DNA from: an uncultured Bacteroidia bacterium
GTDB lineage: Bacteria > Bacteroidota > Bacteroidia > Bacteroidales > UBA932
Reading direction: 5' to 3'
NCBI GenBank assembly: GCA_902769525.1
Contig: CACXPG010000006.1
Location: 12,432 to 76,431, forward strand
Length of the DNA stretch: 64,000 bases
The first letter of the stretch is position 1; the number at the start of each line of letters is the position of its first letter. The translations under genes and the position numbers were made by a program. Of this stretch, positions 45,238-57,961 are shown one piece after another. The notes below the pieces were generated by a model. The model saw only the letters and a list, made by a program, of their open reading frames with translations. It did not search any database and was not told the DNA's origin.

Positions 45238-46335
45238 ATGAACCTTGTAGTTATTCGTCTTCTCAACCAGCAGCTTGCGGCACCTCAGTTCACCGATCCG
45301 GCTGAGGTTGTACGCCATTTATGCGCCATCCAGGCACAGGAATACCGCATGATGCGCTGGGCTGTGGCCATGCGCACCAAAAAGCCTTCCGCCAAGGCGT
45401 TCAGGGAGGCTTTTGACAGCGGAAGCATCATCCGCCTTCACCTTATGAGGGGCACCTGGCAGCTGGTAAGCGCACAAGATTACTGGTGGATGCTGGACCT
45501 TTGCGCTCCCAAGGCCATTGCCGTCACTAAAGGCTGGATGGCCAGCAACAAGATCTCCATCCCGGCTAAAGAACAGGCCAAAATCAGAGATATTCTTTCA
45601 AGAACAGCATCGGACATGGGAAGCGCAACTAAAGAAGATTTCAAACAGGCTCTGAAAGAGAAAGATATAACTATGGATGACCACAGGCTGTCCTACCACA
45701 TCCGTATGGCCGAGTTTTCCGGCACTCTCTGCAGCGGAGACCTCCTTCCCATGAAAGCCACATACTCTCTGGTATCAAATAAAGTAGGCCCACACCCTGG
45801 CAAAACCGACAGGAACGAGGCCCTTATGAACCTCACCCGCAAGTATTTCCAGAGCCGCCAGCCTGCCACTCTCGAGGACTTTGTCTGGTGGTCCGGCCTT
45901 AATGTCAGCGATTGCAGAAGGGGCATTGAACTCCTTAGCACTTCAATTCATAAAGAGCATCTTAATGGCCGTGATTTCTACCTTACCGACAACTGCCGCA
46001 CACGAGGCTTCCGCCATGGCAAATACTTTCTTATTCCTCCATACGATGAATATCTGATTGGCTACAAAAGTAGAGACATAGTCCTGCCCCAGGAACATCG
46101 TCACAAGGCCCACAACAACAGCGGCATCTTCCAGCCCGTCATCGCTCACGACGGCATCATCTGTGGCAACTGGGCTCCGTTCAAACCAGAACTTCAGGCG
46201 GAATTCTTCATCCCGTCCACACCCGTAGCCAAGCATAGCAGCTCCACAAAATCCTATCCTGAGCCACTCCAGCACGCCTGGCATGTTTACAACCGCTTAT
46301 TTTCTTGCCCTGGTAATTTCAACCTGAAGTCCTAG
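45238..46335 (+). CDS. winged-helix DNA-binding protein, YcaQ/AlkZ-like (DUF1006) DNA glycosylase family
   Basis: N-terminal LLNQQL...AIQAQEYRMMRWAVAMR signature; 365 aa. The 3' end overlaps higA by 39 nt. Confidence 0.75.
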   Translation: MNLVVIRLLNQQLAAPQFTDPAEVVRHLCAIQAQEYRMMRWAVAMRTKKPSAKAFREAFDSGSIIRLHLMRGTWQLVSAQDYWWMLDLCAPKAIAVTKGWMASNKISIPAKEQAKIRDILSRTASDMGSATKEDFKQALKEKDITMDDHRLSYHIRMAEFSGTLCSGDLLPMKATYSLVSNKVGPHPGKTDRNEALMNLTRKYFQSRQPATLEDFVWWSGLNVSDCRRGIELLSTSIHKEHLNGRDFYLTDNCRTRGFRHGKYFLIPPYDEYLIGYKSRDIVLPQEHRHKAHNNSGIFQPVIAHDGIICGNWAPFKPELQAEFFIPSTPVAKHSSSTKSYPEPLQHAWHVYNRLFSCPGNFNLKS

Positions 46336-46608
46336 TGCATTGATTATGCGGTAGAAAGTTCCGACACTTGGGACCATCACTCCGTTTTCAATCTTTGAAA
46401 TGTAGCTTTTGGTGCTTCCTATTCTTGATGCCAATTCATTTTGAGTCACACTCTCTCCTACACGAGCATCCTTAAGAATCTGTCCTGAATAAAAAGCATA
46501 AGCTTCTTCTTCTGCCTTGATTCTCTCTTTACTTCCCGGAGTGCCGAATTCTGTATCTAGAACAATATCGTAATCTCTTATTTTATTGTCATTTACATGT
46601 TTTTTCAT
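46297..46608 (-). CDS. higA: XRE-family HTH antitoxin (HigA-like)
   Basis: HTH SVTQNELASRIGSTKSYISKIENG. Immediately downstream of, and overlapping, the toxin gene. Confidence 0.8.
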   Translation of the reverse strand: MKKHVNDNKIRDYDIVLDTEFGTPGSKERIKAEEEAYAFYSGQILKDARVGESVTQNELASRIGSTKSYISKIENGVMVPSVGTFYRIINALGLQVEITRARK

Positions 46609-46945
46609 AGTATGCTTTCTTTATTAGTTTTGCTTTGTCAATCTCATTTTGGGGTGTTTGTTGAGTCTTTTTCTTAAAACCGTTAAACAGTACAACAACA
46701 TTGTCTGAGTCAAAAATGAAGAAAGTCCTGAATATGTTCCCTTCATATTCTGTCCTAAGTTCATAAATGCCTTCATCTATGTGTTTTACAAACTTGGCAG
46801 GTATCCTGTTTTGTGTTTTCAGGAGAAGTAGACCATATTTTACCTTTTGTTGCTGTTCAAGTGTTAAGGTTTTCATAAAAGCCTCAAAGTATCCTCCGTA
46901 TGTCAAGATTCGTCTTGTCGATTGCAAAGGTAATAAAGGTTGCAT
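46589..46945 (-). CDS. higB: RelE/ParE-superfamily toxin, Gp49/HigB-like (DUF891)
   Basis: FEAFMKTL...KV.YGL.LL......P.KFVKHI.EGIYELR.EY.GNIFR.FF.FD pattern typical of Gp49-like toxins. Confidence 0.8.
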   Translation of the reverse strand: MQPLLPLQSTRRILTYGGYFEAFMKTLTLEQQQKVKYGLLLLKTQNRIPAKFVKHIDEGIYELRTEYEGNIFRTFFIFDSDNVVVLFNGFKKKTQQTPQNEIDKAKLIKKAYYEKTCK

Positions 46946-46956
46946 TATTATGCAAC
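46939..46956. promoter_or_regulatory. inverted repeat GTTGCAT-N4-ATGCAAC overlapping the higB start codon
   Basis: 7-bp arms read directly. The higB ATG (46943-46945, minus strand) lies inside the left arm. Confidence 0.4.
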
Positions 46957-47170
46957 TTGTCGCTGCTTTTTTATTCTGTTTTCTTTGCTGTTTTTTTTGT
47001 TTGATTTTTCTTTCCCTTTTTATCGTTCTTCTCCTTCATCATTCTTTTTGATATTTCAATGATTCAAAGGAAAAGGATCCCGCAGATAAGCGGTTGCAAG
47101 ACTGTAAAATTTACCCGACAGAGTTAAAAATTTTGTGGTTAACGTTTTTGATCAACGTAAAATAACAATC

Positions 47171-47737
47171 TCAGCGACTATACTTTGCCTTGATTTCCTG
47201 ACTGAAATACTTGTCCCTGGCTTTTCTCTCGGCTTGTTCTTTACGGCTCTTCTCCCTTAACTGTCTGGCCAAGGCAATCCTCTCCCGATATTCCTTTCCA
47301 CCGGACACAATCTCATCATTGACCCTCAAAACAGTTTCCTCAAAAACTGCTTTTTTCAGCTGGCACTCCCACACAATCACCACCTTCCATCCCAGTGCCT
47401 CGAGCCTTCTCCATACTGCAGAATCGCGATTCTTGTTTCTTTCAACCTTTGCCGTCCAGAACTCCACATTGCTCTTTGGCACCGTGTACAGACTGCACCC
47501 CTGGTGCCCGTGCCAGAAGCATCCGTGCACAAAAACCACTGTCCTGTACCGCCCAAACACTATATCCGGCTTACCTGGCAATCGTGGATCATTCACTCTG
47601 TACCTTAACCCCAGATGCCACAGCGCTCTCCTTAGCCGTATTTCCGGCTTTGTCCCCGATGAGTGTATCCGCGACATACAGTAATGCCGCTGCGCCTTGG
47701 TCATCTTGTCTGCCATTCCACTTGCTGATGAAATCAA
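47171..47737 (-). CDS. vsr: very short patch repair endonuclease (start may be 47716 or 47704)
   Basis: TKPEIRLRRAL...GKPDIVF...VFVHGCFWHGH signature, plus an about 40-aa basic C-terminal tail. Confidence 0.9.
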   Translation of the reverse strand: MISSASGMADKMTKAQRHYCMSRIHSSGTKPEIRLRRALWHLGLRYRVNDPRLPGKPDIVFGRYRTVVFVHGCFWHGHQGCSLYTVPKSNVEFWTAKVERNKNRDSAVWRRLEALGWKVVIVWECQLKKAVFEETVLRVNDEIVSGGKEYRERIALARQLREKSRKEQAERKARDKYFSQEIKAKYSR

Positions 47738-47807
47738 AGTAAAGTTACAAATATTCTTTTCTCAGCGATTATTTACTGTTTGACATAAACTGTCAATCTT
47801 GTTTCCA

Positions 47808-47815
47808 TATCTTTG
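47808..47815 (+). promoter_or_regulatory. -7 box (TATCTTTG) upstream of the NADAR gene
   Basis: TAnnTTTG match 29 nt before the ATG at 47844. Confidence 0.4.
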
Positions 47816-47843
47816 CACCAGAGAATCAAAACCCGAATCAGCA

Positions 47844-48659
47844 ATGCAAACTCTCCAAAACAAGTACCTCTTTTTCTGGAGCCACTCGGAAAGAGGCAGC
47901 AACGTTACCAAGGCCTGCCTGAGCCAATGGTATCCTTCATACATGATAATAGACAACGTTCCTTATTGCAATGTAGAACAGTATCTTATGGCTGAAAAGG
48001 CTCGCACTTTCGGCGATACGGAAACAGAACAGAAGATTCTGAAGACAAGCGATCCAAAGGAAATCAAGAAACTCGGCCGTGAAGTAAAGGATTATGATGA
48101 TCAAATATGGGCAGCAAAGCGTAAAGATGTTGCATTCAAGGCCAACACTGTCAAATTCGCCTCCCACACGCACCTAAGGAAATTCCTCTTTGAAACAAAG
48201 ATCTGGACTCTTGTTGAAGCCAGTCCTTACGACCGCATCTGGGGCATTGGCTACAACGAGGCTCATGCCCTCAAGGTCAGCCCAGACCAGTGGGGCCAGA
48301 ACCTTCTTGGCCAAGTCTTGATGGAAGTAAGGGCCAACCTGAAGAAGCCTTACCTCAAATACTGCCGCTATTATAAAGACGACGGTTCAAGCCAACTTAA
48401 CCGTCCTGGCGATAATACCTCGTTTGCCTCATACGAATTTGCCTGGATTGTTGATGAAATTGCCAACCCGCTCTCTATCAGCAGTCTTCTGTCTGAATAC
48501 TTTGCCTACGGCCATGAGTTCTTCAATATGAACGATGGTGTTCCAATCACTCTCAAAGCCACGCTTTTCAACCGTTGGGTAAAAATGTCTGGTTTCCAAA
48601 TTGACAAAGATGGCTTCCAGACTTGGTACAAGGAGCATTATTTGAAATCTAAGGCTTAA
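47844..48659 (+). CDS. NADAR (DUF1768/YbiA-like) domain protein with about 110-aa unknown C-terminal extension
   Basis: LFFWSH....LSQWYP....ID...Y...EQYLMAEKA..FGD...IWGIG signature in the first about 170 aa. The remainder is unrecognised. Confidence 0.8.
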   Translation: MQTLQNKYLFFWSHSERGSNVTKACLSQWYPSYMIIDNVPYCNVEQYLMAEKARTFGDTETEQKILKTSDPKEIKKLGREVKDYDDQIWAAKRKDVAFKANTVKFASHTHLRKFLFETKIWTLVEASPYDRIWGIGYNEAHALKVSPDQWGQNLLGQVLMEVRANLKKPYLKYCRYYKDDGSSQLNRPGDNTSFASYEFAWIVDEIANPLSISSLLSEYFAYGHEFFNMNDGVPITLKATLFNRWVKMSGFQIDKDGFQTWYKEHYLKSKA

Positions 48660-48725
48660 CACCCAAGAATGGCATATAGACAATACAAATATTACAGTCC
48701 GTTTGCCTTTTGTTCAGCGATTAGT

Positions 48726-48745
48726 TAAATTTGCTTGAGCAAGCA
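48726..48745 (+). promoter_or_regulatory. -7 box TAAATTTG overlapping small palindrome TGCTTG-AG-CAAGCA upstream of the R-M operon
   Basis: Read directly. The -7 box is at 48726-48733 and the palindrome at 48732-48745. The ATG is at 48777. Confidence 0.35.
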
Positions 48746-48776
48746 TATATTTAAATAATGTAATTTATTCAAGGAC

Positions 48777-50417
48777 ATGGCTAAGATGACCACAATTACT
48801 GAAAAACAATCTCTCATGCGTACCGTAGAAAAGTTAATTGCAGGACATATGCTTTGCTATTCCAAGCAAGATCGTAAGTATATTCTTTTGGGCTTGGACG
48901 TTATTTCTGAGTTTAAGATCACTGTTGATGTAAAATCATCACATATTAGTATTGAACAGTTTCAGAATCTTCTTTCAAAGATTAATGAAAAGGAGCAGAG
49001 GCGTAGAGATGAGGGAGTTTATTATACCCCGAAAGATATTACTGAATATATTGCAGCGAACTCATATCTTTTCTATTTGCTCCCAAATGTTAATCAAGTG
49101 CATTCTGTTACTCGATGTTTATCATTTATTAGTCGGGCTAGTAACGAAAAACTATTAAGAGCTAAAGTTTTTGACCCCACTTGTGGTACTGCGGAGTTCT
49201 TACTTAGTGCTCTTCAGCTTAAATTGAAGATTTTTAAAGTTTTTAATAATGACAAAGAAATACTAAAGGTTACTTCTACTATTTATGGTAATGATATCGC
49301 AGAAGAATCTATTCTATTGTCGAAAATCAGAATTTTCTTTGCCATTGTTAATTTGCTCAAGGACAAAAAAAATGCTTTGCAATTAGGGAAAATTCTTAAC
49401 AAGAATTTTGGGAATGGCGATTTTGTCATTAATCCTTGTGTGAAACCTTGTTTCGAGATTATACTTGGCAACCCTCCGTATGTAGAATATGGGAAATTGC
49501 AGATTATTCCTTCTACAAACTTTGGGAATACCTATGCAGATGTATTGAAGAATTCTATAGAATCTTTAAAACAAGGTGGTGTTATCGGTTTTATTATTCC
49601 TCTTTCATTTGTTTCAACACCAAGGATGAAAGGCATAAGGAGCTATGTTTGTTCTAAATTAACTAGATTATTCGCTCTAAATTTCGCCGATCGTCCAGAC
49701 TGTTTATTTGAAGGGGTCCACCAAAAACTTACTTTATTATTTGGACAGAAGGGAAATGGAGGGTGCAATGTATATTCTTCAAGCTATTATCACTGGTACA
49801 ATGATGAAAGATATGATTTGTTGAATAAAGCAAAAATTGTTTCGGTTGTTCCAGAAGATTCATATATTCCCAAAATAGGAACAAAATATGAACTTAGCAT
49901 ATTTAATAAAATATTGGATATTAAAGGGGAAACCCTTCCAAAAATATCAAAAGAAACAGTAAAAGAAACATCAATATTTCTTAATATGAGAGGCTGTTTC
50001 TGGATGAAGGCTTTCTCATTTAATCCCGGTTCAAATGAGTATAAAAGGTTTTATTGTCCAAATTACTTACAACCATACCTTTTGGCCGTTTTAAACTCTA
50101 CAATTTTTTTCTTATTCTGGACAATAGTATCTGATTGTTGGCACATAACAGGAAAAGAGTTGAATGGTTTTAAGATACCTATTAGTGATGTCAAATTTGA
50201 CGCGTTTAGACAATTAGTTATCAATCTTGAAAGAAGGTTGGAAGAAACAAAAAAATATGTTGGAAGTAAACAGACACTTTTCGAATATAAACACAGGGAT
50301 TGTAAAAATGAAATAGACAAGATTGATAAAGCCTTACAAGGCATATATCATTTGACGGATAAGGAGTTGTCTTTTTTGAAAGACTTTAAGCTTAGATATA
50401 GAATGAGTAATGGCTAA
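48777..50417 (+). CDS. N6-adenine DNA methyltransferase (gamma class, Eco57I/TaqI-like, with C-terminal TRD)
   Basis: VYYTPKDI, FDPTCGTAEFL and NPPY at nt 49470-49481. C-terminal LLAVLNSTIFFLFW is a TaqI_C-like TRD. Confidence 0.85.
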   Translation: MAKMTTITEKQSLMRTVEKLIAGHMLCYSKQDRKYILLGLDVISEFKITVDVKSSHISIEQFQNLLSKINEKEQRRRDEGVYYTPKDITEYIAANSYLFYLLPNVNQVHSVTRCLSFISRASNEKLLRAKVFDPTCGTAEFLLSALQLKLKIFKVFNNDKEILKVTSTIYGNDIAEESILLSKIRIFFAIVNLLKDKKNALQLGKILNKNFGNGDFVINPCVKPCFEIILGNPPYVEYGKLQIIPSTNFGNTYADVLKNSIESLKQGGVIGFIIPLSFVSTPRMKGIRSYVCSKLTRLFALNFADRPDCLFEGVHQKLTLLFGQKGNGGCNVYSSSYYHWYNDERYDLLNKAKIVSVVPEDSYIPKIGTKYELSIFNKILDIKGETLPKISKETVKETSIFLNMRGCFWMKAFSFNPGSNEYKRFYCPNYLQPYLLAVLNSTIFFLFWTIVSDCWHITGKELNGFKIPISDVKFDAFRQLVINLERRLEETKKYVGSKQTLFEYKHRDCKNEIDKIDKALQGIYHLTDKELSFLKDFKLRYRMSNG

Positions 50418-51513
50418 TTATAGAGTTATAGATTTATTCGCAGGCTGTGGAGGTTTCTCTGTGGGGTTTGAGCAGGCAGGTTTTTCCATTGTGAAGGCTG
50501 TGGAATACGACAAGACTATAGCGAAATCATATTCGCATAATCATAAAGGAACCATATTGCTTTCCGAAGATATTGGTAATGTAGATAACGAGTTTTATTT
50601 TTCACGCGGAGAATCAGATGTTATTATTGGAGGGCCTCCGTGCCAAGGTTTTTCAATGGCAGGTGCTAGGATACGAAATAAAAATACTTTTATAGAAGAT
50701 CCTCGTAATTATTTATTCCTTCATTATGTTAATATCGTTAGAATTGTGCGACCTAAGGTATTCGTACTAGAAAACGTGAAAGGAATTCTTTCAAAAGATA
50801 ATGGTGCTATTTTCAAGGAGATTGTAAGCACATTTAGCAATCCCTTGTTTTTTAATGGTGATAGATATTTCTTGCATTATAAGGTTTGTCGTGCTGTGGA
50901 TTACGGGGTTCCTCAACAACGTGAAAGAGTCGTTGTAATAGGCGTTCTTAATTATGACTATGATATTGACGCTGTTTTCAAAGAAACCAGAAATGATATT
51001 AAGCGATTTGATGGGCATTTTTTTGATCCCGTATCCTTGAGGGATGCAATTTCAGACTTATCTAGCCCCACAAAAGATGGTGTTGTTGAATTACAACCAT
51101 GCCTATCACAGTATCAAGAATATTTAAGAAAAGGTTGCAAAACAACAAATAATCATACAGCATCAAATCATAGTTCAGTTGCTATTATGAGAATGCGGCG
51201 TGTTAAAGCTGGTCAAAATTGGCAGATTTTAAAAGAAGACATTAGTTCTGTCCATAGCGGTGCTTATGGACGTTTAGCATGGGACATGCCAACAATGACT
51301 ATAACGACACGTTTTGATACACCTGCCGGGGGACGTTTTATTCATCCAATCGAAAACCGAACTCTTACACCTCGGGAGGCTGCACGTGTTCAATCTTTTC
51401 CTGACAGTTTCGAGTTTATTGGAAACAAAACAATTATTTGCAAGCAAATAGGAAACGCCGTGCCTCCGAAAATGGCTTACTTTTTAGCAAACGTTGTAAA
51501 ACATCTTATATGA
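50410..51513 (+). CDS. DNA (cytosine-5)-methyltransferase
   Basis: Motif I DLFAGCGGFSVGF, motif IV GGPPCQGFS (Cys codon 50641-50643), ENV, QRER and GNAVPP. Start overlaps the upstream gene by 8 nt. Confidence 0.95.
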   Translation: MANYRVIDLFAGCGGFSVGFEQAGFSIVKAVEYDKTIAKSYSHNHKGTILLSEDIGNVDNEFYFSRGESDVIIGGPPCQGFSMAGARIRNKNTFIEDPRNYLFLHYVNIVRIVRPKVFVLENVKGILSKDNGAIFKEIVSTFSNPLFFNGDRYFLHYKVCRAVDYGVPQQRERVVVIGVLNYDYDIDAVFKETRNDIKRFDGHFFDPVSLRDAISDLSSPTKDGVVELQPCLSQYQEYLRKGCKTTNNHTASNHSSVAIMRMRRVKAGQNWQILKEDISSVHSGAYGRLAWDMPTMTITTRFDTPAGGRFIHPIENRTLTPREAARVQSFPDSFEFIGNKTIICKQIGNAVPPKMAYFLANVVKHLI

Positions 51514-51514
51514 T

Positions 51515-53290
51515 ATGAGTTCTTTAAGTACCCTCAAATTACAGAAGCTTAACAATATTGGCCAAAATGGCGGTTTTTGGTATATAACAAAGCAAAATCT
51601 TGTTTTTCGAGATCTGTGTTTTATAGCTAAAATACTTGAACAATGGAATGATAGTCAAAATGAGAATTATGAAACATTCTTCGACAGAAAGAAAATTCTT
51701 CATGAGTATGGTGGTTTTTCAGCTAAAACAGCTCATCGTGCTACGAAGAATTGCGAATATTTAGGACTAACGAGGCCATCATCTAATTACAGTGCAAGAT
51801 ATTTAACTCCATATTATTATGCACTTAAAAATCTTTGCCGTGGTGATTTTAATCGGCTATCAAGATATCCTCAAATTGTTAATAGGCAATTAGAGCGAAT
51901 GTTCATTGATTCAAGAAACAATAATCAGTATAGTATAACAATTCAAATATCTCCTTTTATGTTTTTGTTCAAGATATTACTCCTAATTGGCGACATTACT
52001 GAATCGTATAAGATTTCTACGTCCGAGTTTAAGCTATTCGTTGCTACAGCTCAAAATTGGAACGATTATTTCGAGGTCGTCGAGTCCATATTGAGGTACA
52101 GAGAAGATAATGATTTTCAAACTCAGTGCGATAATAATCAATCTAAAGTCAGTGATGTTCGATATAATGTTTTAGCACAAAATCATTCCCAACTTGAGGT
52201 GACTTCAGAGTATTTAGCTATAAAAGCAGAAGACATTAAAAACATTCGCAGAAAGGTTGCCGAATACGAAATAAATGAAGACATTCATAGTTCCGAAGAT
52301 GTTTTCCTAGTAGATGCGCTTTTGGAACGTCCATACCAGCAAATATACTACGGAGCTCCTGGAACGGGCAAGTCATTTAAGTTAAGGGAAGATACTAAAT
52401 CATTTAATCATATCCGGACGATATTTCACCCCGATTCTGATTATGCATCTTTTGTCGGTTGTTATAAACCAGTAATGAATGGTGATAAGATTAAGTATGA
52501 CTTTCGTGCTCAAGCATTTATTAATGCTTATGTTAACGCATGGCTTTCAAAAGATCCTTATTATCTCATAATTGAAGAAATAAATCGTGGTAATTGCGCC
52601 CAGATTTTTGGAGACATTTTCCAGCTTCTCGATAGGAAAAATGGCGTTTCTGACTACACTGTTGTTCCTGATGCAGACCTTAAGAAACACTTGTGTGATA
52701 CATTTCATAGTGAAGAAAATCAGGCTATTATAAAAGAAAAGGGACTTGTTATTCCTAATGATATTCTGGAAGGAACTGGAATGAGGTTGCCTGCAAATTT
52801 CTTCCTCCGCGCGACAATGAATACTTCAGACCAATCTCTTTTCCCGATGGATAGTGCATTTAAACGTCGTTGGGCATGGAAACATTTTTCTATTAAAGAT
52901 GAGGGAAAGGGATACAAGATAGAAGTAGATGAAAACCATGTATATGATTGGTGGAAAACAATAGACACGTTGAATCGTAAGATATACGGAGAAACAAAAT
53001 CGGCGGACAAACAACTCGGTTATTGGTTTACGAAACTCCCAGATAACGTGACTGTTATTTCCAAAGATGATTTTGTGTCGAAGGTTCTCTTTTACTTATG
53101 GAATGATGTGTTTAAAGATTATGGTTTTGATTCCAAAAATGCTTTTTCTGAAGAGATACAATTCGACAAATTTTTTACAAGTGACGGAGATGTGGATGCC
53201 TCAATGGTGGTAAAGTTCATGGAGTATAATGGCATCAAACCTGAAGAAAAGGAGTCTTCTGAAGACTCGGCTGAAGAAGAACAGCAATGA
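51515..53290 (+). CDS. McrB-family AAA+ GTPase restriction subunit (LlaJI R1-like) with unknown about 270-aa N-terminal domain
   Basis: Walker A GAPGTGKS (52352-52375), Walker B IIEEINRGN, McrB signature MNTSDQS and FKRRW. Confidence 0.85.
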   Translation: MSSLSTLKLQKLNNIGQNGGFWYITKQNLVFRDLCFIAKILEQWNDSQNENYETFFDRKKILHEYGGFSAKTAHRATKNCEYLGLTRPSSNYSARYLTPYYYALKNLCRGDFNRLSRYPQIVNRQLERMFIDSRNNNQYSITIQISPFMFLFKILLLIGDITESYKISTSEFKLFVATAQNWNDYFEVVESILRYREDNDFQTQCDNNQSKVSDVRYNVLAQNHSQLEVTSEYLAIKAEDIKNIRRKVAEYEINEDIHSSEDVFLVDALLERPYQQIYYGAPGTGKSFKLREDTKSFNHIRTIFHPDSDYASFVGCYKPVMNGDKIKYDFRAQAFINAYVNAWLSKDPYYLIIEEINRGNCAQIFGDIFQLLDRKNGVSDYTVVPDADLKKHLCDTFHSEENQAIIKEKGLVIPNDILEGTGMRLPANFFLRATMNTSDQSLFPMDSAFKRRWAWKHFSIKDEGKGYKIEVDENHVYDWWKTIDTLNRKIYGETKSADKQLGYWFTKLPDNVTVISKDDFVSKVLFYLWNDVFKDYGFDSKNAFSEEIQFDKFFTSDGDVDASMVVKFMEYNGIKPEEKESSEDSAEEEQQ

Positions 53291-55047
53291 AATTGATTGT
53301 TGAAGAATATTACTATAAGTCAGCACTTGCACATGATATTATAAGGGGTTTTAATCATAAAATCCTTAGAGACGGTATTTCAACTGATTGTGTCGGTTAT
53401 TGCTACAGTAGACAACTTAAAGATTGTGTGTTCTTTGTTCCAAAGGTAATTTGCGATGAGAATGATAAGATTCTCGGGAAGTATTCTCCAGAAGAATGTA
53501 TAGACCTTTTGAATAGTCCCATAGATACGGGAGAGAAATCCTTTCTTCAAGAACTTAATGTATGGATATATCGAGCTCTTAAAGAGTACTCATATTTAAA
53601 AGAATCTTCTGACATACTGCAAGAGCAATATTTCTCTCTAGCTGATTCTTCCGGTAAGTTAACTCAAGGCTCATTTCTTGATAAGATACTTGCCCTAGTG
53701 AAGTTTTATGAAGAGAATCGTGATTTCTTCATTTTCACTTTAAAAAACATTCATAGTCAACATCATAGAATTAACTGGAATAAGACGATTTCCCATTCTC
53801 AAGCAATTATTCATGATAATGTTCCGGTTTATCTTGATCCCGTGAGTAAGAAGAAATCAATTGATTGGGATGAAGAATTGATGATTATTTTCTTTTCAAT
53901 TCTTGATTATCTCCAAAAATACGGTTTCGTCATTCGCACAGAGTACAATTATGAATTAATCAAAGGAGAGGCTTTTGAAGCATATATCGATGGTTTAGGT
54001 ACTCGTCGTCTTAGGCAGATTAGGCATCGTTATTTTTCAGATAAAACAAGAAAACTATGGTCGCTATGTTATGCTTTTTTTGATAATGCGGAAACCATAT
54101 TGTCAAGTAAAGAAGAAAAGGAGTTTCTGATAGCCACTAGTTTTCATACTGCTTTTGAGGCAATGGTCGATGAGCTAATAGGTGAGCCAGACCTTGCAGA
54201 AATGAGAAAGCTTGATGATGGTAAAATAATCGACCATATTTATAGAGATACATCTATCCTGTCGAAGGATTTAGTCTATTTTATTGGCGATAGTAAGTAT
54301 TATAAGAAAAGTAACTCAGTTGAAGAAAGGAGTCAATCTGCATACAAACAGTATACATATGCAAGGAATATTGTTCACGATAGTATAAAAAGTTCATTCG
54401 ATAATACATGGCCGTACAGAGATTCCTTGACCGAAGGATATTGCATTACACCCAATTTCTTCATTAGTGCAGAAATTGACACAGATCTTAGGTATAACGT
54501 TGATGGGTTTGAGAAAGAAAAGGATGTTCTTGGGAGACCTTTTTCGTCACGCCAGTTCAATAATCGTTTGTTTGATAGAGATACACTTTGGATCAATCAA
54601 TACAATCTAAACTTCCTCTATCTTCTTTCGGCATATGCATCTGCAGATTTCGGATTGAAAGAGGACTTTAAAGCAAAGGCTCGTCGCTTTTTCAGGGATT
54701 GCACCATTGACTTAATGAATGCAAAGTATGAATTTTGGAAACTTCTGCCAAAGGATGGGAAAAAACTTCAGGATGTGCTTACAAATGAAGTTAAATGGGA
54801 ACTTCGTGGCATGGTCTATAGTTTAGGCCAAGATGCTTTAATTTTAGCAATGGAAAAGCCCGAAGAGCCGGAAAATGAAGGAGATGCATATTATACAAAA
54901 TATGGGCCTATGATTGATTTCGATAGAATTAAGCCGCTTGTTAAGGGTAATTTTAAATATAGTTGCTGCAAACTTTCTAAACAGAAAGAACTCATTGTAG
55001 AAGATGATGAAAACACGTGTTCTAGAGTTTTTTTGTTCGAAAAATAA
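53287..55047 (+). CDS. McrC/LlaJI R2-like restriction endonuclease subunit
   Basis: 4-nt overlap with the GTPase gene. PD-(D/E)xK-like IGDSKYYK (D335 at 54289-54291, K337 at 54295-54297). Size and position match the McrC partner. Confidence 0.7.
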   Translation: MKLIVEEYYYKSALAHDIIRGFNHKILRDGISTDCVGYCYSRQLKDCVFFVPKVICDENDKILGKYSPEECIDLLNSPIDTGEKSFLQELNVWIYRALKEYSYLKESSDILQEQYFSLADSSGKLTQGSFLDKILALVKFYEENRDFFIFTLKNIHSQHHRINWNKTISHSQAIIHDNVPVYLDPVSKKKSIDWDEELMIIFFSILDYLQKYGFVIRTEYNYELIKGEAFEAYIDGLGTRRLRQIRHRYFSDKTRKLWSLCYAFFDNAETILSSKEEKEFLIATSFHTAFEAMVDELIGEPDLAEMRKLDDGKIIDHIYRDTSILSKDLVYFIGDSKYYKKSNSVEERSQSAYKQYTYARNIVHDSIKSSFDNTWPYRDSLTEGYCITPNFFISAEIDTDLRYNVDGFEKEKDVLGRPFSSRQFNNRLFDRDTLWINQYNLNFLYLLSAYASADFGLKEDFKAKARRFFRDCTIDLMNAKYEFWKLLPKDGKKLQDVLTNEVKWELRGMVYSLGQDALILAMEKPEEPENEGDAYYTKYGPMIDFDRIKPLVKGNFKYSCCKLSKQKELIVEDDENTCSRVFLFEK

Positions 55048-55077
55048 TTTTTTCAAAAAGTAGCTTATATTGGAATT

Positions 55078-55461
55078 ATGACAATCGTTGAATGGTCTGC
55101 TATACTATCTCCGATTTTATCAGTCATTATTGCTGTAGTAATGATTCGGTATAATAACAGGGATACCAGAAAGTTGGTTGACAATTTGAGAAAACTGGCT
55201 AGGACTAATGTGGAACTGAATATTCAGCAGTTGGAATTAGACCTCAGACGTGAACAATTGTTATCGGGAGTTCAACATTCAAAGCATAATTATTTCTCTG
55301 ACAGTTATCTCTCCGGGTATCAGAAGACAGTGGCAGACCATATGATGGAACAGTATAAAAGAGTTGAGGAGCCAAAGTTGTTGTCGGAGATGCATCAGGA
55401 ATATCTGGCAATTCAACAGTCTTATTTGGAGAAACTGAAAGAGTTGAAGAAAGGGTTTTGA
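55078..55461 (+). CDS. hypothetical membrane-anchored coiled-coil protein
   Basis: 127 aa with an N-terminal TM helix (ILSPILSVIIAVVMI), then a heptad-like charged region. Confidence 0.5.
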   Translation: MTIVEWSAILSPILSVIIAVVMIRYNNRDTRKLVDNLRKLARTNVELNIQQLELDLRREQLLSGVQHSKHNYFSDSYLSGYQKTVADHMMEQYKRVEEPKLLSEMHQEYLAIQQSYLEKLKELKKGF

Positions 55462-55507
55462 TAAATACTGTATGTATTGGATTATGTTATTGTTAAAATA
55501 AGTCGTT

Positions 55508-56635
55508 ATGAAGAAACTGCTATTTATTTCTTTAATGTTGTGTAGTTCACTTGCATTCTCTCAAAATGCAGTGCATTATGCTTTTGATACAAATGGTCCA
55601 ATGGGAGAGTGCTTGTTCAATCAAGATTCTCGCGGGAATGTTATTTATACTGGAATAGTTGAGATGAACGGAACAGCTGAAGAGATTATTATGGCTGTCT
55701 CAGATTTCATTGAATCTTCTAAGGGTTTGCTCGAATGCGAGGCAAAGCAGAAAGTGAAGACAAAGAAAAATGTTATGTACCAGATCAAGTGTCCGGTTGG
55801 GAAACAGTATTTTAGCATTGAAGTATGGAGTTCACCTGTATTTTCTCGTTTAAGAGATGCAAGTGAAGTTATTTTTGATTGTAATGTCGAGGCGATTGAC
55901 GGCAAGTTCAAATATACGTTGAATAACTTTGTGACCAAGAGAAATATGTTGAAGGGTGAGGCTAAGAATGATGGTTCACCAAACATAATCCATTGGCAGA
56001 GAGTTAATAGCCTAATTAAAGAGAGGCAGAATTACTTGTCTAGACATAATCCTGCAAAGCGCTCTACAAAAGAAGATTTATACGACTATGACACTCAAAT
56101 AGACTTTGAGCAGTCGTTATATAAAATGGAGCATAAGAAGGTTATGCAGTTTGTCGAAGGCTTGATTAATATGAAGGAGCAGAGTTCGGATACTTTTACT
56201 TCGGATTTAGTCCCTGCCGATGATGGCAACGATGGTATAGAGCCACTTAATCTTGATAATTATAAGGGAAATCTTCTTAAGAAAGGCAATTGCGTATATG
56301 TGATGGGAGGGAACCCATATGAATCTGCTGGTGCTTCTGAATTGATCAAGCAAATATCAATTGATAACCTGTGGAAGATTGTCCCGGATCCTAGATTAGC
56401 TCATTTTATCATTGAGTATCGTGTGGATCTTGATGGAAGAGACAAGGCTTATTTAAGAATTAGCAGTAGAGATGGCTCTCGCTTTTTTTCTGGTTTCAAG
56501 CATTCTTCAGACGAGTCAGTTGATGGTAATAGAGGTGTGGCAAGAAGTATGTACTTAAATGAATTGTATCCTCTTATTAAGAAGTTGGAGTCTGGGAAAA
56601 CACCTAAAGAACTTGTTGATTTTGAAATTAGATAA
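55508..56635 (+). CDS. hypothetical secreted protein (N-terminal DUF4468-like region)
   Basis: Signal peptide ending in AFSQ. The family guess is from memory of the YTGIVEMNG..EEI....DFI pattern. Confidence 0.5.
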   Translation: MKKLLFISLMLCSSLAFSQNAVHYAFDTNGPMGECLFNQDSRGNVIYTGIVEMNGTAEEIIMAVSDFIESSKGLLECEAKQKVKTKKNVMYQIKCPVGKQYFSIEVWSSPVFSRLRDASEVIFDCNVEAIDGKFKYTLNNFVTKRNMLKGEAKNDGSPNIIHWQRVNSLIKERQNYLSRHNPAKRSTKEDLYDYDTQIDFEQSLYKMEHKKVMQFVEGLINMKEQSSDTFTSDLVPADDGNDGIEPLNLDNYKGNLLKKGNCVYVMGGNPYESAGASELIKQISIDNLWKIVPDPRLAHFIIEYRVDLDGRDKAYLRISSRDGSRFFSGFKHSSDESVDGNRGVARSMYLNELYPLIKKLESGKTPKELVDFEIR

Positions 56636-56673
56636 CTTTCATAGCCGAGACACAATATGTTCAAATAGCAGAC

Positions 56674-57108
56674 ATGAAACGTATTTACTTGTTTATGGCG
56701 CTGATGGTTGCAGCTGTAGTGGCAACGGCGCAGAAGGCTGAGGCGCAGGCTTCTGCTCAGGCCTCTGTTCAGAGCCAGGTGGCTGGAGTGCAGGTTCCTG
56801 TCGCTGAGGAGGAATATTACATCTATAACTTTGTGTATCTGTCGGGAGATATAAAGAATGAAGGGCTGAAAGCAGATATAGATGACGGAGTGTCAATAGA
56901 GAGAGTGAAGGATGCTGATGGCAAGACAATCAAGTTCAGGACACCGGCTGCGGTGCTGATGTACTTTACGGCTAAGGGATGGGAATGGGTAGCAAATGGA
57001 GACACCCTTTATAGCGGGGGAGATTCAACCAGGTCGTACTGGGTGCTCAGGAAACGGTGCACGAAGGAGGAGATGCTTGCGGCGGCGAAGGCAGGAAGGA
57101 AGAAGTAA
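56674..57108 (+). CDS. hypothetical secreted protein with A/Q-rich linker
   Basis: Signal peptide ending in ATAQ and a low-complexity AEAQASAQASVQSQ stretch. G+C looks higher than in neighbouring genes. Confidence 0.55.
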   Translation: MKRIYLFMALMVAAVVATAQKAEAQASAQASVQSQVAGVQVPVAEEEYYIYNFVYLSGDIKNEGLKADIDDGVSIERVKDADGKTIKFRTPAAVLMYFTAKGWEWVANGDTLYSGGDSTRSYWVLRKRCTKEEMLAAAKAGRKK

Positions 57109-57118
57109 AGCAGGATTT

Positions 57119-57150
57119 GCGGTCGAGGTTGCTCGGCCGCTTTTTGTTTG
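57119..57150 (+). terminator. rho-independent terminator
   Basis: 9-bp stem gcggtcgag/ctcggccgc (one G-T pair), loop gttg, then TTTTTGTTTG. Confidence 0.7.
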
Positions 57151-57280
57151 TGGTGGGATGGTTGCAAAATGTTGCTCATTTCCGTACGATTCTACGATTG
57201 TACAGGGTAAATTTTACCGGATGGTTTGGTTGAAGGGGTGGGGCGAGTGTAGATTTGCGGTAAACTAAATAGTGAGGGTT

Positions 57281-57892
57281 ATGGAAGAGCAATTGAAAGG
57301 AAAAGATGGGAAGCAAGAAGATCTTTCTTCTTGCAGGGTATATAGTAATGTTGAGGAGAGATTAATCGTTCTGAGGGGACAATCTGTCATTTTGGATGCG
57401 GATGTTGCAGAGATTTATGGGGTGGAAACTAAACGAGTCAACGGAGCCGTTAGAAATAATCCCGACAAATTTCCGAGTGATTATTTATGGGTCCTTTCTG
57501 ATGAAGAGATAGATGATTTGCGGACGAAAAATTCGTCCACAAATTTTTCCGTGATGTCTAGGAAACGCCCTAAAGCATTTACAGAGAAAGGTTTATATAT
57601 GCTTGCGACTATTCTGAAAAGTAATAAAGCTAAAGAGGCAACCTTTGCGATAATAGAAACATTTGCTAAGGTACGCCGTCTTAAGCAGGGCTTGTTGGAT
57701 ATTCATAAAGAGGCAGATGCATGCAGGCGCAAAGATAAAATGCAACAGTTCGGCAAAGAATTATCTGACATCGTGATGCCAGATATGGAAACCTCTGAGA
57801 CGGAATCAACTCTGGAACTGAATTTCTTTATTGGGAAGATAAAGCATACTGTTCGAAGAATAAGAAAAAACAAAGAAGGGAAAGGGGAGTAA
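57281..57892 (+). CDS. ORF6N domain protein (KilA-N-related DNA-binding)
   Basis: LRGQSVILDADVAEIYGVETKRVNGAVRNNPDKFPSDYLWVLSDEE matches the ORF6N signature. The ORF-track start at 57272 is GTG; the ATG is at 57281. Confidence 0.8.
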   Translation: MEEQLKGKDGKQEDLSSCRVYSNVEERLIVLRGQSVILDADVAEIYGVETKRVNGAVRNNPDKFPSDYLWVLSDEEIDDLRTKNSSTNFSVMSRKRPKAFTEKGLYMLATILKSNKAKEATFAIIETFAKVRRLKQGLLDIHKEADACRRKDKMQQFGKELSDIVMPDMETSETESTLELNFFIGKIKHTVRRIRKNKEGKGE

Positions 57893-57901
57893 AAAGGGAT
57901 T

Positions 57902-57924
57902 TGCGGTCGAAATTTTCGACCGCA
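57902..57924. terminator. palindromic hairpin between convergent genes
   Basis: tgcggtcgaaa t tttcgaccgca, 23 nt and almost fully self-complementary. Confidence 0.45.
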
Positions 57925-57961
57925 GATAAATAACATTATTCCAATTTCAATAAAGGGGAAA

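What the first reader, a model, noticed from the sequence alone, without database searches (positions are those of the whole stretch)
48777..55047. Translationally coupled four-gene GTPase-dependent restriction operon with mixed m6A plus m5C methyltransferases
Seen: the gene order is gamma-class N6A MTase (NPPY), C5 MTase (PPCQ, ENV, QRER), McrB-family GTPase (GAPGTGKS, EEINRGN, MNTSDQS), then a 586-aa McrC/LlaJI-R2-like protein with GDSKYYK. The junctions are an 8-nt overlap, a 1-nt gap and a 4-nt overlap, so this is very probably one operon. Established: LlaJI and BsuMI-type systems pair two methyltransferases with McrB-like and McrC-like subunits and cut unmodified DNA. The described LlaJI example uses two m5C enzymes. 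Classical McrBC has no cognate MTase and cuts modified DNA. Inference: this may be an LlaJI-logic system protecting an asymmetric site with one adenine and one cytosine methylation, one per strand. I am not aware of a characterised member with that combination.
Basis: partly seen in the sequence, partly recalled or inferred. Interest (0 to 1): 0.6.

Follow-up and report, generated by a model that had tools for sequence, protein, structure and literature searches.

The report
Methylase-protected McrBC-type restriction operon, swappable cassette
This is an intact four-gene anti-phage restriction-modification operon of the known but little-studied LlaJI kind, in a rumen Bacteroidales genome; its two methylases and its DNA-reading domain form one block that is exchanged as a unit between different cutting engines.

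Summary
Four co-directional ORFs lie at 48777-55047 with junctions of -8, +1 and -4 nt. They encode a gamma-class N6-adenine MTase, a C5-cytosine MTase, a McrB-family GTPase (NxxD branch) and a McrC-like PD-(D/E)xK nuclease (Pfam RE_LlaJI). They sit in a 33-37% GC island that 24 same-genus genomes lack.

- All six M1 contexts examined show the same order: M1, C5 MTase, R1, McrC-like protein.
- In one lineage the two MTases are fused into a single 931-aa protein.
- The 276-aa N-terminus of R1 folds like the recognition domain of type IIS enzymes (N.BspD6I, BpuJI). It is neither a methyl-base reader nor the B3 domain of LlaJI.
- A sister strain carries the same island, with a 96% identical GTPase and a 99-100% identical R2. 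There, window 48738-52342 (M1, M2, reader) is replaced by Mrr, two C5 MTases and another reader.
- Conversely, the same cassette sits on NxD-branch GTPases paired with DUF2357 nucleases.

Mixed m6A/m5C protection is already known from Eco31I. I rate this a new variant of a known kind. The recognition site, one-strand-each methylation and GTP dependence remain untested.

The parts
48702..48733 (+). Bacteroidetes-type promoter-like element (TTTG, 20 nt, TAAATTTG) 44 nt upstream of the M1 start. It lies just left of the cassette breakpoint, so both alleles share it.
   Evidence: Sequence read and pattern hit at 48726-48733. TAnnTTTG is not enriched in the window as a whole, so this is a pattern match only. 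L068 is 96.4% identical up to 48737.
48738..52342 (+). Specificity cassette: M1, M2 and the R1 reader domain. It is the block replaced as a unit in the sister-strain allele.
   Evidence: blastn of L068 against the window. The flanks 45747-48737 and 52343-57563 are 96.4% and 98.2% identical, and the stretch between them is unrelated. An X7 contig also matches only from 52346 onward.
48777..50417 (+). M1: gamma-class N6-adenine DNA methyltransferase with a C-terminal target-recognition region (Eco57I/MmeI-like methylase half). An alternative start is at 48786.
   Evidence: Pfam Eco57I and N6_Mtase. PADLOC type IIG REase-MTase model, residues 225-544, E 5.6e-27. Motifs DPTCGT and NPPY. More than 100 homologues at 46-65% identity.
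50410..51513 (+). M2: C5-cytosine DNA methyltransferase with motifs in canonical order.
   Evidence: Pfam DNA_methylase 3.8e-76. TIGR00675. PDB M.HaeIII 3.5e-38. Motif positions.
51515..52342 (+). R1 N-terminal reader domain (aa 1-276), with the fold of type IIS recognition domains.
   Evidence: AlphaFold2 model with pLDDT 85.8 and pTM 0.85. The 12 best Foldseek PDB hits are all N.BspD6I or the BpuJI recognition domain (E 8e-5 to 5e-3, TMq 0.46-0.59); the next hit has E 0.8. Weak Pfam RE_AlwI hit. The domain is 62-71% conserved in more than 100 R1 homologues.
52343..53290 (+). R1 McrB-family GTPase (AAA+) domain of the NxxD branch: Walker A 52352-52375, Walker B 52568-52594, NTSD signature 52817-52837.
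   Evidence: PDB 6ut3 alignment. NCBIfam McrB. Motifs. 96% identical in L068.
53287..55047 (+). R2: McrC-like PD-(D/E)xK nuclease subunit of the RE_LlaJI family. Predicted catalytic residues are D316 and D335-S-K337 (54286-54306); E291 is also invariant.
   Evidence: Pfam RE_LlaJI 25.1 bits against a cut-off of 23.6. These residues are invariant in 48 homologues. The AlphaFold2 model (pLDDT 79.4) best matches B. subtilis YdjA (BsuMI subunit, E 6.8e-12) and T. gammatolerans McrC (2.2e-7); the next hit has E above 0.1.
47171..47737 (-). vsr (T:G mismatch endonuclease), a possible accessory to the m5C methylase. It is not part of the swapped cassette.
   Evidence: Pfam Vsr 4.8e-35. Vsr lies next to C5-containing R1/R2 modules in L020, L034, L042, L051, L057/58 and L069-71. 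It is present in both alleles. The genome has a second C5 MTase on another contig.

Best explanation
This is a LlaJI-type restriction-modification system: a methylation-protected enzyme driven by a McrBC-type engine. It is built from two separable modules.

Module 1 is the specificity cassette (window 48738-52342). It holds M1 (gamma N6-adenine MTase), M2 (C5-cytosine MTase) and the first 276 residues of R1. That R1 segment is a type IIS-like DNA-recognition domain.

Module 2 is the engine (52343-55047). It holds the McrB-type GTPase domain of R1 and the McrC-like PD-(D/E)xK nuclease R2.

Proposed mechanism:
1. The R1 reader binds a short, probably asymmetric, unmodified sequence on incoming DNA.
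2. R1 assembles into a GTP-bound ring that recruits R2.
3. GTP hydrolysis drives translocation or activation.
4. R2 cuts the DNA.
5. On host DNA, M1 methylates an adenine and M2 a cytosine in or beside that sequence, most likely one on each strand.

For: 1. Anatomy: four overlapping ORFs with all catalytic motifs intact. R1 is McrB-like by sequence. R2 is McrC/YdjA-like by profile and by fold, with invariant PD-(D/E)xK residues.

2. No methyl-base reader or B3 entry appears among the 50 Foldseek hits listed. By sequence the same domain family also occurs fused to HNH, fused to a ResIII/SNF2 helicase, and as stand-alone proteins of about 280 aa. That is the behaviour of a restriction-enzyme specificity module.

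3. Conservation: all six M1 contexts examined have the order M1, C5 MTase, R1 (AlwI-like N-terminus plus AAA_5), McrC-like protein, in unrelated flanks. These are the window, L057-59, L060, L062-64, L152 and L153.

4. Fusion: in L062-64 the two MTases form one 931-aa protein, N6A at aa 83-334 and C5 at 562-922, in the same order as the genes.

5. Co-variation: among 84 non-redundant R1 loci, 99 of 112 pairs with similar readers (88%) share the MTase set, against 25% of other pairs. None of 10,000 label shuffles reached this. MTase-less Fibrobacter loci instead carry the MrcB_N domain typical of type IV enzymes.

6. Natural swap: L068 is the same island (flanks 96-99% identical, R1 GTPase 96%, R2 99-100%). 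It has Mrr, two C5 MTases and an unrelated reader in place of window 48738-52342. The right breakpoint lies three codons before Walker A.

7. Their GTPase belongs to the NxD branch and their nuclease is DUF2357/PDDEXK_7. Neither gives a tblastn hit to the window's engine.

8. Precedents: LlaJI R1 binds the unmethylated site and both R subunits are needed in vivo (PMC1459862). A LlaJI-like cluster limits uptake of unmethylated DNA in C. cellulovorans (PMC11779793). Eco31I uses m6A plus m5C on complementary strands (PMC4659465).
Against: - No experiment or methylome exists for this system or any close relative. No transcript evidence was found.
- The RE_LlaJI profile match is marginal (25.1 against 23.6 bits) and covers only profile positions 35-235 of 365.
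- tblastn of R2 against 72,556 plasmids found only one Pedobacter plasmid and no lactococcal LlaJI. Kinship to the type enzyme is therefore distant.
The fold is assigned; the specificity is not.
- Cassettes can carry passengers: L068's cassette includes an Mrr gene. Co-transfer alone does not prove that both MTases protect the same site.
- The co-variation statistic is not corrected for shared descent.
- GTPase activity was not demonstrable in vitro for LlaJI itself (PMC1459862).
Confidence: 0.8

Rival explanations
1. This is a plain type IV McrBC enzyme that cuts modified foreign DNA and merely lies next to two unrelated orphan methyltransferases.
For: R1 and R2 belong to the McrB/McrC superfamily. 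MTase-less relatives with a MrcB_N reader exist within the same R2 family (L008, L011, L049).
Against:
- The order M1, M2, R1, R2 is kept in six unrelated contexts, and the MTases are fused in one lineage.
- Reader and MTases are swapped together in L068.
- A type IV enzyme would not be expected to be translationally coupled to MTases and to keep that linkage across lineages.
Confidence: 0.04
2. This is a true R-M system in which only one MTase is the cognate protector. The other is a passenger or has a separate role, for example epigenetic regulation, protection against another nuclease, or M2 working with vsr.
For: - Single-C5 versions are the commonest form of the family (37 of 84 loci), so one MTase can suffice.
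- Cassettes can carry extra genes: Mrr in L068.
- vsr nearby fits any m5C MTase.
Against: M1 is always followed by the C5 MTase in the contexts seen, and the two are fused in L062-64. M1 resembles the one-strand methylase half of type IIG/IIL enzymes; that such halves modify only one strand is my own recollection, and it would leave the other strand needing a second enzyme. Eco31I is a precedent for needing both (PMC4659465).
Confidence: 0.12
3. The operon is a decaying or silent remnant, or an assembly chimera in a metagenome-assembled genome, and has no present function.
For: The genome is MAG-like: 23 contigs, 92% complete. The island is mosaic in GC. No RNA-seq support was found.
Against: All four ORFs are full length with intact catalytic motifs. 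Contigs from other runs match the stretch, and one X4 contig spans the cassette/engine boundary at 52342/3. The engine is 96-100% conserved at protein level in the sister allele, which suggests purifying selection.
Confidence: 0.04

Closest known systems
LlaJI of Lactococcus lactis pNP40 (M1, M2, R1, R2; site GACGC/GCGTC)
   Same: Four co-oriented genes: two MTases, then a protein with an N-terminal reader and a C-terminal McrB-type GTPase, then a McrC-like PD-(D/E)xK subunit. The logic is restriction of unmethylated DNA. R2 hits Pfam RE_LlaJI.
   Different: - LlaJI uses two m5C MTases; this operon has one gamma N6A and one C5 MTase.
- The LlaJI R1 reader is a B3-like domain (PMC12707154, citing Hosford and Chappie 2018); here it is a type IIS (N.BspD6I/BpuJI-like) recognition domain.
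- Sequence kinship to the lactococcal proteins is too low for BLAST.
BsuMI of Bacillus subtilis (YdiO/YdiP MTases; YdiR, YdiS, YdjA) and LlaI of pTR2030
   Same: A McrB-like NTPase plus a McrC-like nuclease protected by cognate MTases. R2's best structural match is YdjA (9a5m_A, E 6.8e-12).
   Different: In BsuMI and LlaI the McrB-like subunit is short (337-343 aa) and the restriction cassette has three genes (PMC1459862).
Eco31I / Alw26I / Esp3I type IIS R-M systems
   Same: For Eco31I, a gamma-type N6A MTase (PF02384) and a C5 MTase each modify one strand of an asymmetric site (PMC4659465). From my own memory, not checked here: the two MTase activities lie in one polypeptide in M.Alw26I and M.Esp3I. 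The window's family also has separate and fused forms, and its reader has a type IIS fold.
   Different: Those C5 MTases are circularly permuted (PMC5944983); M2 here is canonical. From memory, their endonuclease is a single chain with its own cleavage domain. Here cleavage is delegated to a McrBC-type GTPase and nuclease pair.
Classical McrBC (E. coli, T. gammatolerans), type IV
   Same: The AAA+ GTPase has Walker A/B and the NxxD signature. The partner is a McrC-fold nuclease.
   Different: McrB's N-terminal domain reads modified bases and there is no cognate MTase.
MTase-associated McrB clades noted in the McrBC census (Bell et al. 2024, eLife, PMC11090510)
   Same: That paper reports that NxxD, NxD and NxxxD GTPase branches are all often linked to DNA methyltransferases. 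It calls the link probably ancestral.
   Different: The paper defers description to a later publication.

Membership tests
LlaJI-type R-M (type II with McrBC-like R1/R2) | Co-oriented operon of MTase gene(s) followed by R1 and R2 | tested here: met
   junctions of -8, +1 and -4 nt. The same order is seen in six contexts.
LlaJI-type R-M (type II with McrBC-like R1/R2) | R1 C-terminal half is a McrB-type GTP-binding domain | tested here: met
   NCBIfam McrB. PDB 6ut3 at 1.7e-13 with Walker A, Walker B and NTSD aligned. Motif positions.
LlaJI-type R-M (type II with McrBC-like R1/R2) | R2 is a McrC-like protein with a PD...(D/E)xK centre (Pfam RE_LlaJI) | tested here: met
   RE_LlaJI 25.1 bits against a cut-off of 23.6, partial coverage. 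D316 and D335-S-K337 are invariant in 48 homologues. The fold matches YdjA and McrC.
LlaJI-type R-M (type II with McrBC-like R1/R2) | R1 N-terminal domain is the B3-like site reader of LlaJI.R1 | tested here: not met
   The Foldseek PDB top hits are only N.BspD6I and the BpuJI recognition domain. No B3 entry appears among the 50 hits listed.
LlaJI-type R-M (type II with McrBC-like R1/R2) | Two m5C methyltransferases, one per strand | tested here: not met
   M1 is a gamma N6A MTase and M2 is a C5 MTase.
LlaJI-type R-M (type II with McrBC-like R1/R2) | Restricts unmethylated DNA; the MTases protect | not testable with these tools
   Supported only indirectly: the cassette swap, reader/MTase co-variation and the MTase fusion.
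LlaJI-type R-M (type II with McrBC-like R1/R2) | GTP dependence of restriction | not testable with these tools
   Motifs only. This was not shown in vitro even for LlaJI (PMC1459862).
Classical type IV McrBC | N-terminal domain that reads modified bases (McrB-N, MrcB_N/DUF3578, YTH, EVE) | tested here: not met
   By contrast, the MTase-less relative L011 does carry MrcB_N (6.9e-55).
Classical type IV McrBC | No cognate methyltransferase | tested here: not met
   Two MTases are translationally coupled upstream and co-inherited.
Type IIS R-M with m6A plus m5C (Eco31I group) | Gamma N6A MTase plus C5 MTase, adjacent or fused | tested here: met
   fusion in L062.
Type IIS R-M with m6A plus m5C (Eco31I group) | Circularly permuted C5 MTase (motifs IX-X before I-VIII) | tested here: not met
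   M2's motifs are in canonical order: FAGCGG 10-15, PPCQ 76-79, ENV 121-123, QRER 170-173, GNAVPP 348-353.
Type IIS R-M with m6A plus m5C (Eco31I group) | Single-chain endonuclease with its own cleavage domain | tested here: not met
Type IIS R-M with m6A plus m5C (Eco31I group) | Adenine and cytosine methylated on complementary strands of one asymmetric site | not testable with these tools
   This needs a methylome or in vitro methylation.
BsuMI / LlaI three-subunit restriction | Short McrB-like subunit with a third restriction gene in the cassette | tested here: not met

The most novel reading that the evidence does not exclude
The block M1 + M2 + reader is a portable specificity cassette for McrBC-type engines. 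It recombines at a fixed joint a few codons before the Walker A motif. This lets strains at one chromosomal locus switch restriction specificity wholesale (window allele versus L068 allele). It also lets the same specificity be mounted on engines from both deep branches of the McrB family: NxxD with RE_LlaJI, and NxD with DUF2357/PDDEXK_7.
Probability: 0.5. Interest if true: 0.7.

Novelty: new variant of a known kind. Interest (0 to 1): 0.55.

Why it matters
LlaJI-type systems are common: at least 7,957 R2 relatives scored E <= 1e-20. Yet they are barely characterised, and the latest McrBC census called the methylase link 'surprising' and left it for later work (PMC11090510).

This locus gives a clean natural experiment. 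It shows that the methylases and the DNA reader belong together and that the GTPase and nuclease form an interchangeable engine. That makes three things directly testable:
- how a McrBC motor is re-aimed from modified to unmodified DNA;
- whether readers can be swapped at the pre-Walker-A joint to build restriction enzymes of chosen specificity;
- how rumen Bacteroidales strains diversify their phage and plasmid barriers.

In practice, such systems are likely obstacles to transforming gut Bacteroidales. The paired MTases would be the tools to get past them.

Tried and rejected
- Sequence searches of R2 and M1 against PDB chains gave nothing useful. Fold search was needed for R2.
- tblastn of R2 against PLSDB plasmids found only one Pedobacter plasmid and no lactococcal LlaJI. 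Direct alignment with the type enzyme was therefore not possible.
- The sigma-70 promoter scan found no more sites than shuffled sequence (33 against 31.6), and TAnnTTTG is not enriched in the window. The promoter assignment is only a positional pattern match.
- A search for RNA-seq runs holding the operon found none; word share was 0.00 in the only metatranscriptomes offered.
- An exact 40-mer from the conserved engine was absent from the JGI metagenome collection.
- I fetched E. coli EC958 to compare M1 and M2 with the Eco31I MTases, but the coordinates I guessed held other genes. I dropped this because M2 is not circularly permuted and so is not an Eco31I-type C5 MTase.
- L060 at first looked like an exception (same MTases, different reader cluster). 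Pairwise BLAST showed its reader is a distant homologue of the same domain: 24% identity over 231 aa, E 4e-7.
- With more loci, single-linkage clustering of readers merged groups. I replaced it with a pairwise test.
- I did not try to predict the recognition sequence. Identity to N.BspD6I is about 15%, and the island looks recently acquired, so genome-wide site avoidance would not be informative.

Full report

Yes. The ORF listing gives four + strand ORFs: 48777-50417 (546 aa), 50410-51513 (367 aa), 51515-53290 (591 aa) and 53287-55047 (586 aa). I read the junctions directly.
- M1/M2 share ATGGCTAA, an 8-nt overlap.
- The M2 stop TGA is followed by a single T and then the R1 ATG.
- R1/R2 share ATGA.

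The four genes have 32.5-37.6% G+C, against about 50% in the surrounding chromosome. No terminator-like site lies on the + strand before 57119. A Bacteroidetes-style TTTG-N20-TAAATTTG element lies 44 nt upstream of M1; this is a pattern match only.

Near-identical sequence occurs in bovine and sheep gut metagenomes from several studies.

**2. What are the four proteins?**

- M1 hits Pfam Eco57I and N6_Mtase. Its C-terminal 320 residues match the methylase/TRD part of a PADLOC type IIG model at 5.6e-27. It is a gamma-class adenine methylase with its own target-recognition region.
- M2 is a canonical C5 methylase: Pfam 3.8e-76 and M.HaeIII 3.5e-38.
- The C-terminal half of R1 is a McrB-family GTPase. 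The alignment to T. gammatolerans McrB (6ut3) covers Walker A, Walker B (IIEEINRGN) and the signature MNTSD, an NxxD motif.
- R2 passes the Pfam RE_LlaJI cut-off, though narrowly (25.1 against 23.6 bits) and only over part of the profile. In an alignment of 48 homologues, E291, D316-H317 and G334-D-S-K-Y-Y339 are invariant. An AlphaFold2 model (pLDDT 79.4) finds only two significant PDB matches: B. subtilis YdjA, a BsuMI restriction subunit (E 6.8e-12), and T. gammatolerans McrC (2.2e-7). The next hit has E above 0.1.

**3. The reader domain.**

The first 270 or so residues of R1 gave only a weak RE_AlwI hit (1.4e-4). They are, however, 62-71% identical in more than 100 metagenomic R1 homologues, nearly all precomputed as RE_AlwI plus AAA_5.

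An AlphaFold2 model of residues 1-275 (pLDDT 85.8, pTM 0.85) was searched against the PDB. The top 12 hits are all either the nickase N.BspD6I or the recognition domain of BpuJI (E 8e-5 to 5e-3, TMq 0.46-0.59). The thirteenth hit has E 0.8. The AlwI Pfam hit points the same way.

So R1 carries a type IIS-style sequence-recognition domain. It does not carry the B3 domain reported for LlaJI.R1 (PMC12707154) or a methyl-base reader.

A phmmer search of 1.84 billion representatives found 118 clusters with this domain. Most are the N-termini of AAA_5 proteins. Some are stand-alone proteins of about 280 aa, one is fused to HNH, and one to a ResIII/SNF2 helicase. That is how a restriction-enzyme specificity module behaves.

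**4. Do the four genes belong together?**

M1 has more than 100 homologues at 46-65% identity. I examined five other contexts: L057-59, L060/61, L062-64, L152 and L153. The flanks are unrelated.

In L062-64 (Paludibacteraceae) the two methylases are one 931-aa polypeptide. The N6A part is at aa 83-334 and the C5 part at 562-922, in the same order as the separate genes. This fusion is the strongest single argument that the two methylases act as a pair.

**5. Reader and methylases co-vary.**

From 150 loci holding R2 relatives (and others) I kept 84 non-redundant R1 genes with a readable upstream region. Their MTase sets are:

| MTase set | Loci |
|---|---|
| C5 alone | 37 |
| C5 + C5 | 16 |
| none | 13 |
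| N6_N4 (beta) + C5 | 11 |
| gamma N6A + C5 | 4 |
| D12 + D12 | 2 |
| D12 | 1 |

Of 112 pairs with similar readers, 99 (88%) share the MTase set. Among other pairs the figure is 25%. None of 10,000 label shuffles reached the observed value. This test is not corrected for shared ancestry.

Mixed amino-MTase plus C5 sets are therefore 15 of 84 loci, which is not rare. The MTase-less Fibrobacter locus tested (L011) carries MrcB_N, the N-terminal domain of type IV McrB proteins. This is a useful internal contrast.

**6. A natural cassette swap.**

The R2 cluster representative P0241 (99% identical) lies on an ENA rumen scaffold, L068. That scaffold is the same island as the window. It has AlkZ-like, HTH/Gp49, vsr and NADAR on the left. 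On the right it has the same three ORFs of 127, 375 and 144 aa, then ORF6N, DUF4919 and the pseudouridine glycosidase gene.

blastn gives:
- L068 1-2990 matches window 45747-48737 at 96.4%.
- L068 7057-12278 matches window 52343-57563 at 98.2%.
- Nothing in between is alignable.

The left breakpoint lies just after the -7 box. The right breakpoint lies three codons before GAPGTGKS. At protein level the R1 GTPase is 96% identical and R2 99-100%.

A sheep-gut contig (X7) also matches the window only from 52346 onward, and another X7 contig stops matching at 48735.

**7. The reciprocal case.**

| Part | L152 / L153 vs window | L068 vs window |
|---|---|---|
| M1 | 50-59% | no hit |
| M2 | 62-74% | 34% (generic C5) |
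| R1 reader | 63-64% | no hit |
| R1 GTPase | no tblastn hit at E 1e-3 | 96% |
| R2 | no tblastn hit at E 1e-3 | 99-100% |

 In L152 the GTPase has Walker A GISGTGKS and the signature VNMDE, which places it in the NxD branch. Its partner is a DUF2357/PDDEXK_7 protein, not RE_LlaJI.

L057 and L062 show a milder version of the same mosaic. Those engine values are no higher than in loci with entirely different methylases.

Specificity cassette and engine therefore assort independently, even across the deepest split of the McrB family described in PMC11090510.

**8. Mechanism.**

This section is inference, built on LlaJI genetics (PMC1459862), McrBC structures (PMC7680126, from its abstract) and the Eco31I precedent (PMC4659465).
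2. R1 forms a GTP-bound ring that recruits R2.
3. Hydrolysis drives translocation or activation, and R2 cuts.

M1's likeness to the methylase part of type IIG enzymes fits a need for a second enzyme; that such methylase halves modify only one strand is my own recollection, not checked here. The site, the strand assignment, the nucleotide used and the cut position are all untested.

**9. Rivals.**

- A type IV enzyme beside orphan MTases is very unlikely, given sections 3 to 7.
- One MTase could be a passenger. This stays possible at about 0.1, because single-C5 systems are the commonest form and L068's cassette carries an extra Mrr gene.
- A dead or chimeric locus is unlikely. Motifs are intact, the engine is conserved in the sister allele, and an independent contig spans the joint.

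**10. Context.**

The genome is 2.23 Mb in 23 contigs. None of 24 same-genus genomes has R2. The three trailing exported-protein genes are part of the island (they are present in L068) but are absent from other modules, so they are not part of the R-M system. vsr recurs beside C5-containing modules elsewhere. It is shared by both alleles, and the genome has another C5 MTase.

**11. Novelty.**

The kind of system is known: LlaJI, and BsuMI/LlaI. Mixed m6A/m5C protection is also known from Eco31I.

I found three things in no paper I could search:
- a McrB GTPase carrying a type IIS (AlwI/N.BspD6I-like) reader and paired with a gamma N6A plus C5 methylase set;
- direct evidence that methylases and reader move as one cassette with a joint just before Walker A;
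- the same cassette mounted on both NxxD and NxD engines.

Earlier notes of this scan show that LlaJI-like operons turn up often. One note had already guessed at a 'recognition cassette'. The L068, L152 and L153 comparisons test that idea here.

Verdict: a new variant of a known kind, with moderate interest.

Noticed in passing
L068:3009-3920 (sister allele of window 48738-52342): The alternative cassette starts with a full Mrr-like type IV restriction gene (Mrr_N plus Mrr_cat, 1.6e-36). It sits directly upstream of, and overlaps, the first of two C5 MTase genes. A methyl-dependent nuclease thus travels with methylases.
   Followed up: partly
window 57564-57953: A 390-nt stretch inside or next to the ORF6N gene is absent from the otherwise 98-99% identical L068. 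L068's ORF6N product is 113 aa against 206 aa here. The stretch lies between the 14-bp direct repeats that another first-stage note reported.
   Followed up: partly
window 55078-57108: Three genes for small exported or membrane proteins (127, 375 and 144 aa) follow R2 with no terminator before 57119. They are conserved in the L068 allele but absent downstream of R2 in every other locus examined. They belong to the island, not to the R-M module.
   Followed up: partly
window 46297-46945 (- strand): An overlapping pair, Gp49-family (HigB-like) toxin and HTH_3 antitoxin-like gene, lies between the AlkZ-like glycosylase gene and vsr. It is also present in L068.
   Followed up: no
window 47799-48659: NADAR-domain protein (7.2e-48) with an extra C-terminal region of about 100 aa. 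It also hits the PADLOC candidate PDC-M42C and the NCBIfam 'NADAR family anti-phage protein' model (weakly). It sits directly before the R-M promoter in both alleles.
   Followed up: no
L057:3366-7850, L059:752-5293, L153:4021-6741: Directly upstream of several M1-type modules lies a second module: C5 MTase plus a large GHKL (HATPase_c_3) protein, in L057-59 followed by a 315-aa unknown. This looks like the MTase-linked HATPase defence modules noted elsewhere in this scan.
   Followed up: no
L008, L011, L049 (Fibrobacter loci): Within the same R2 family, these loci have no MTase. They have an HTH gene upstream, and the one R1 tested (L011) carries a MrcB_N reader. They are probably true type IV members sharing the LlaJI-like nuclease.
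   Followed up: partly
L069:9868-12036 and 16263-17726: A 66%-identical R2 relative sits in vsr - HTH - C5 - R1 - R2, followed by a GmrSD type IV enzyme and a Mob_Pre relaxase. This suggests a mobilisable defence island.
   Followed up: no
G000:C3:120284-121819 (own genome, other contig): A second C5 DNA methyltransferase lies in a 529-aa open frame. vsr in the window therefore need not serve M2.
   Followed up: no
L005:4131-6118, L013:6284-7270: In some Fibrobacter loci one or two HNH_2 endonuclease genes sit between the C5 MTase and R1.
   Followed up: no
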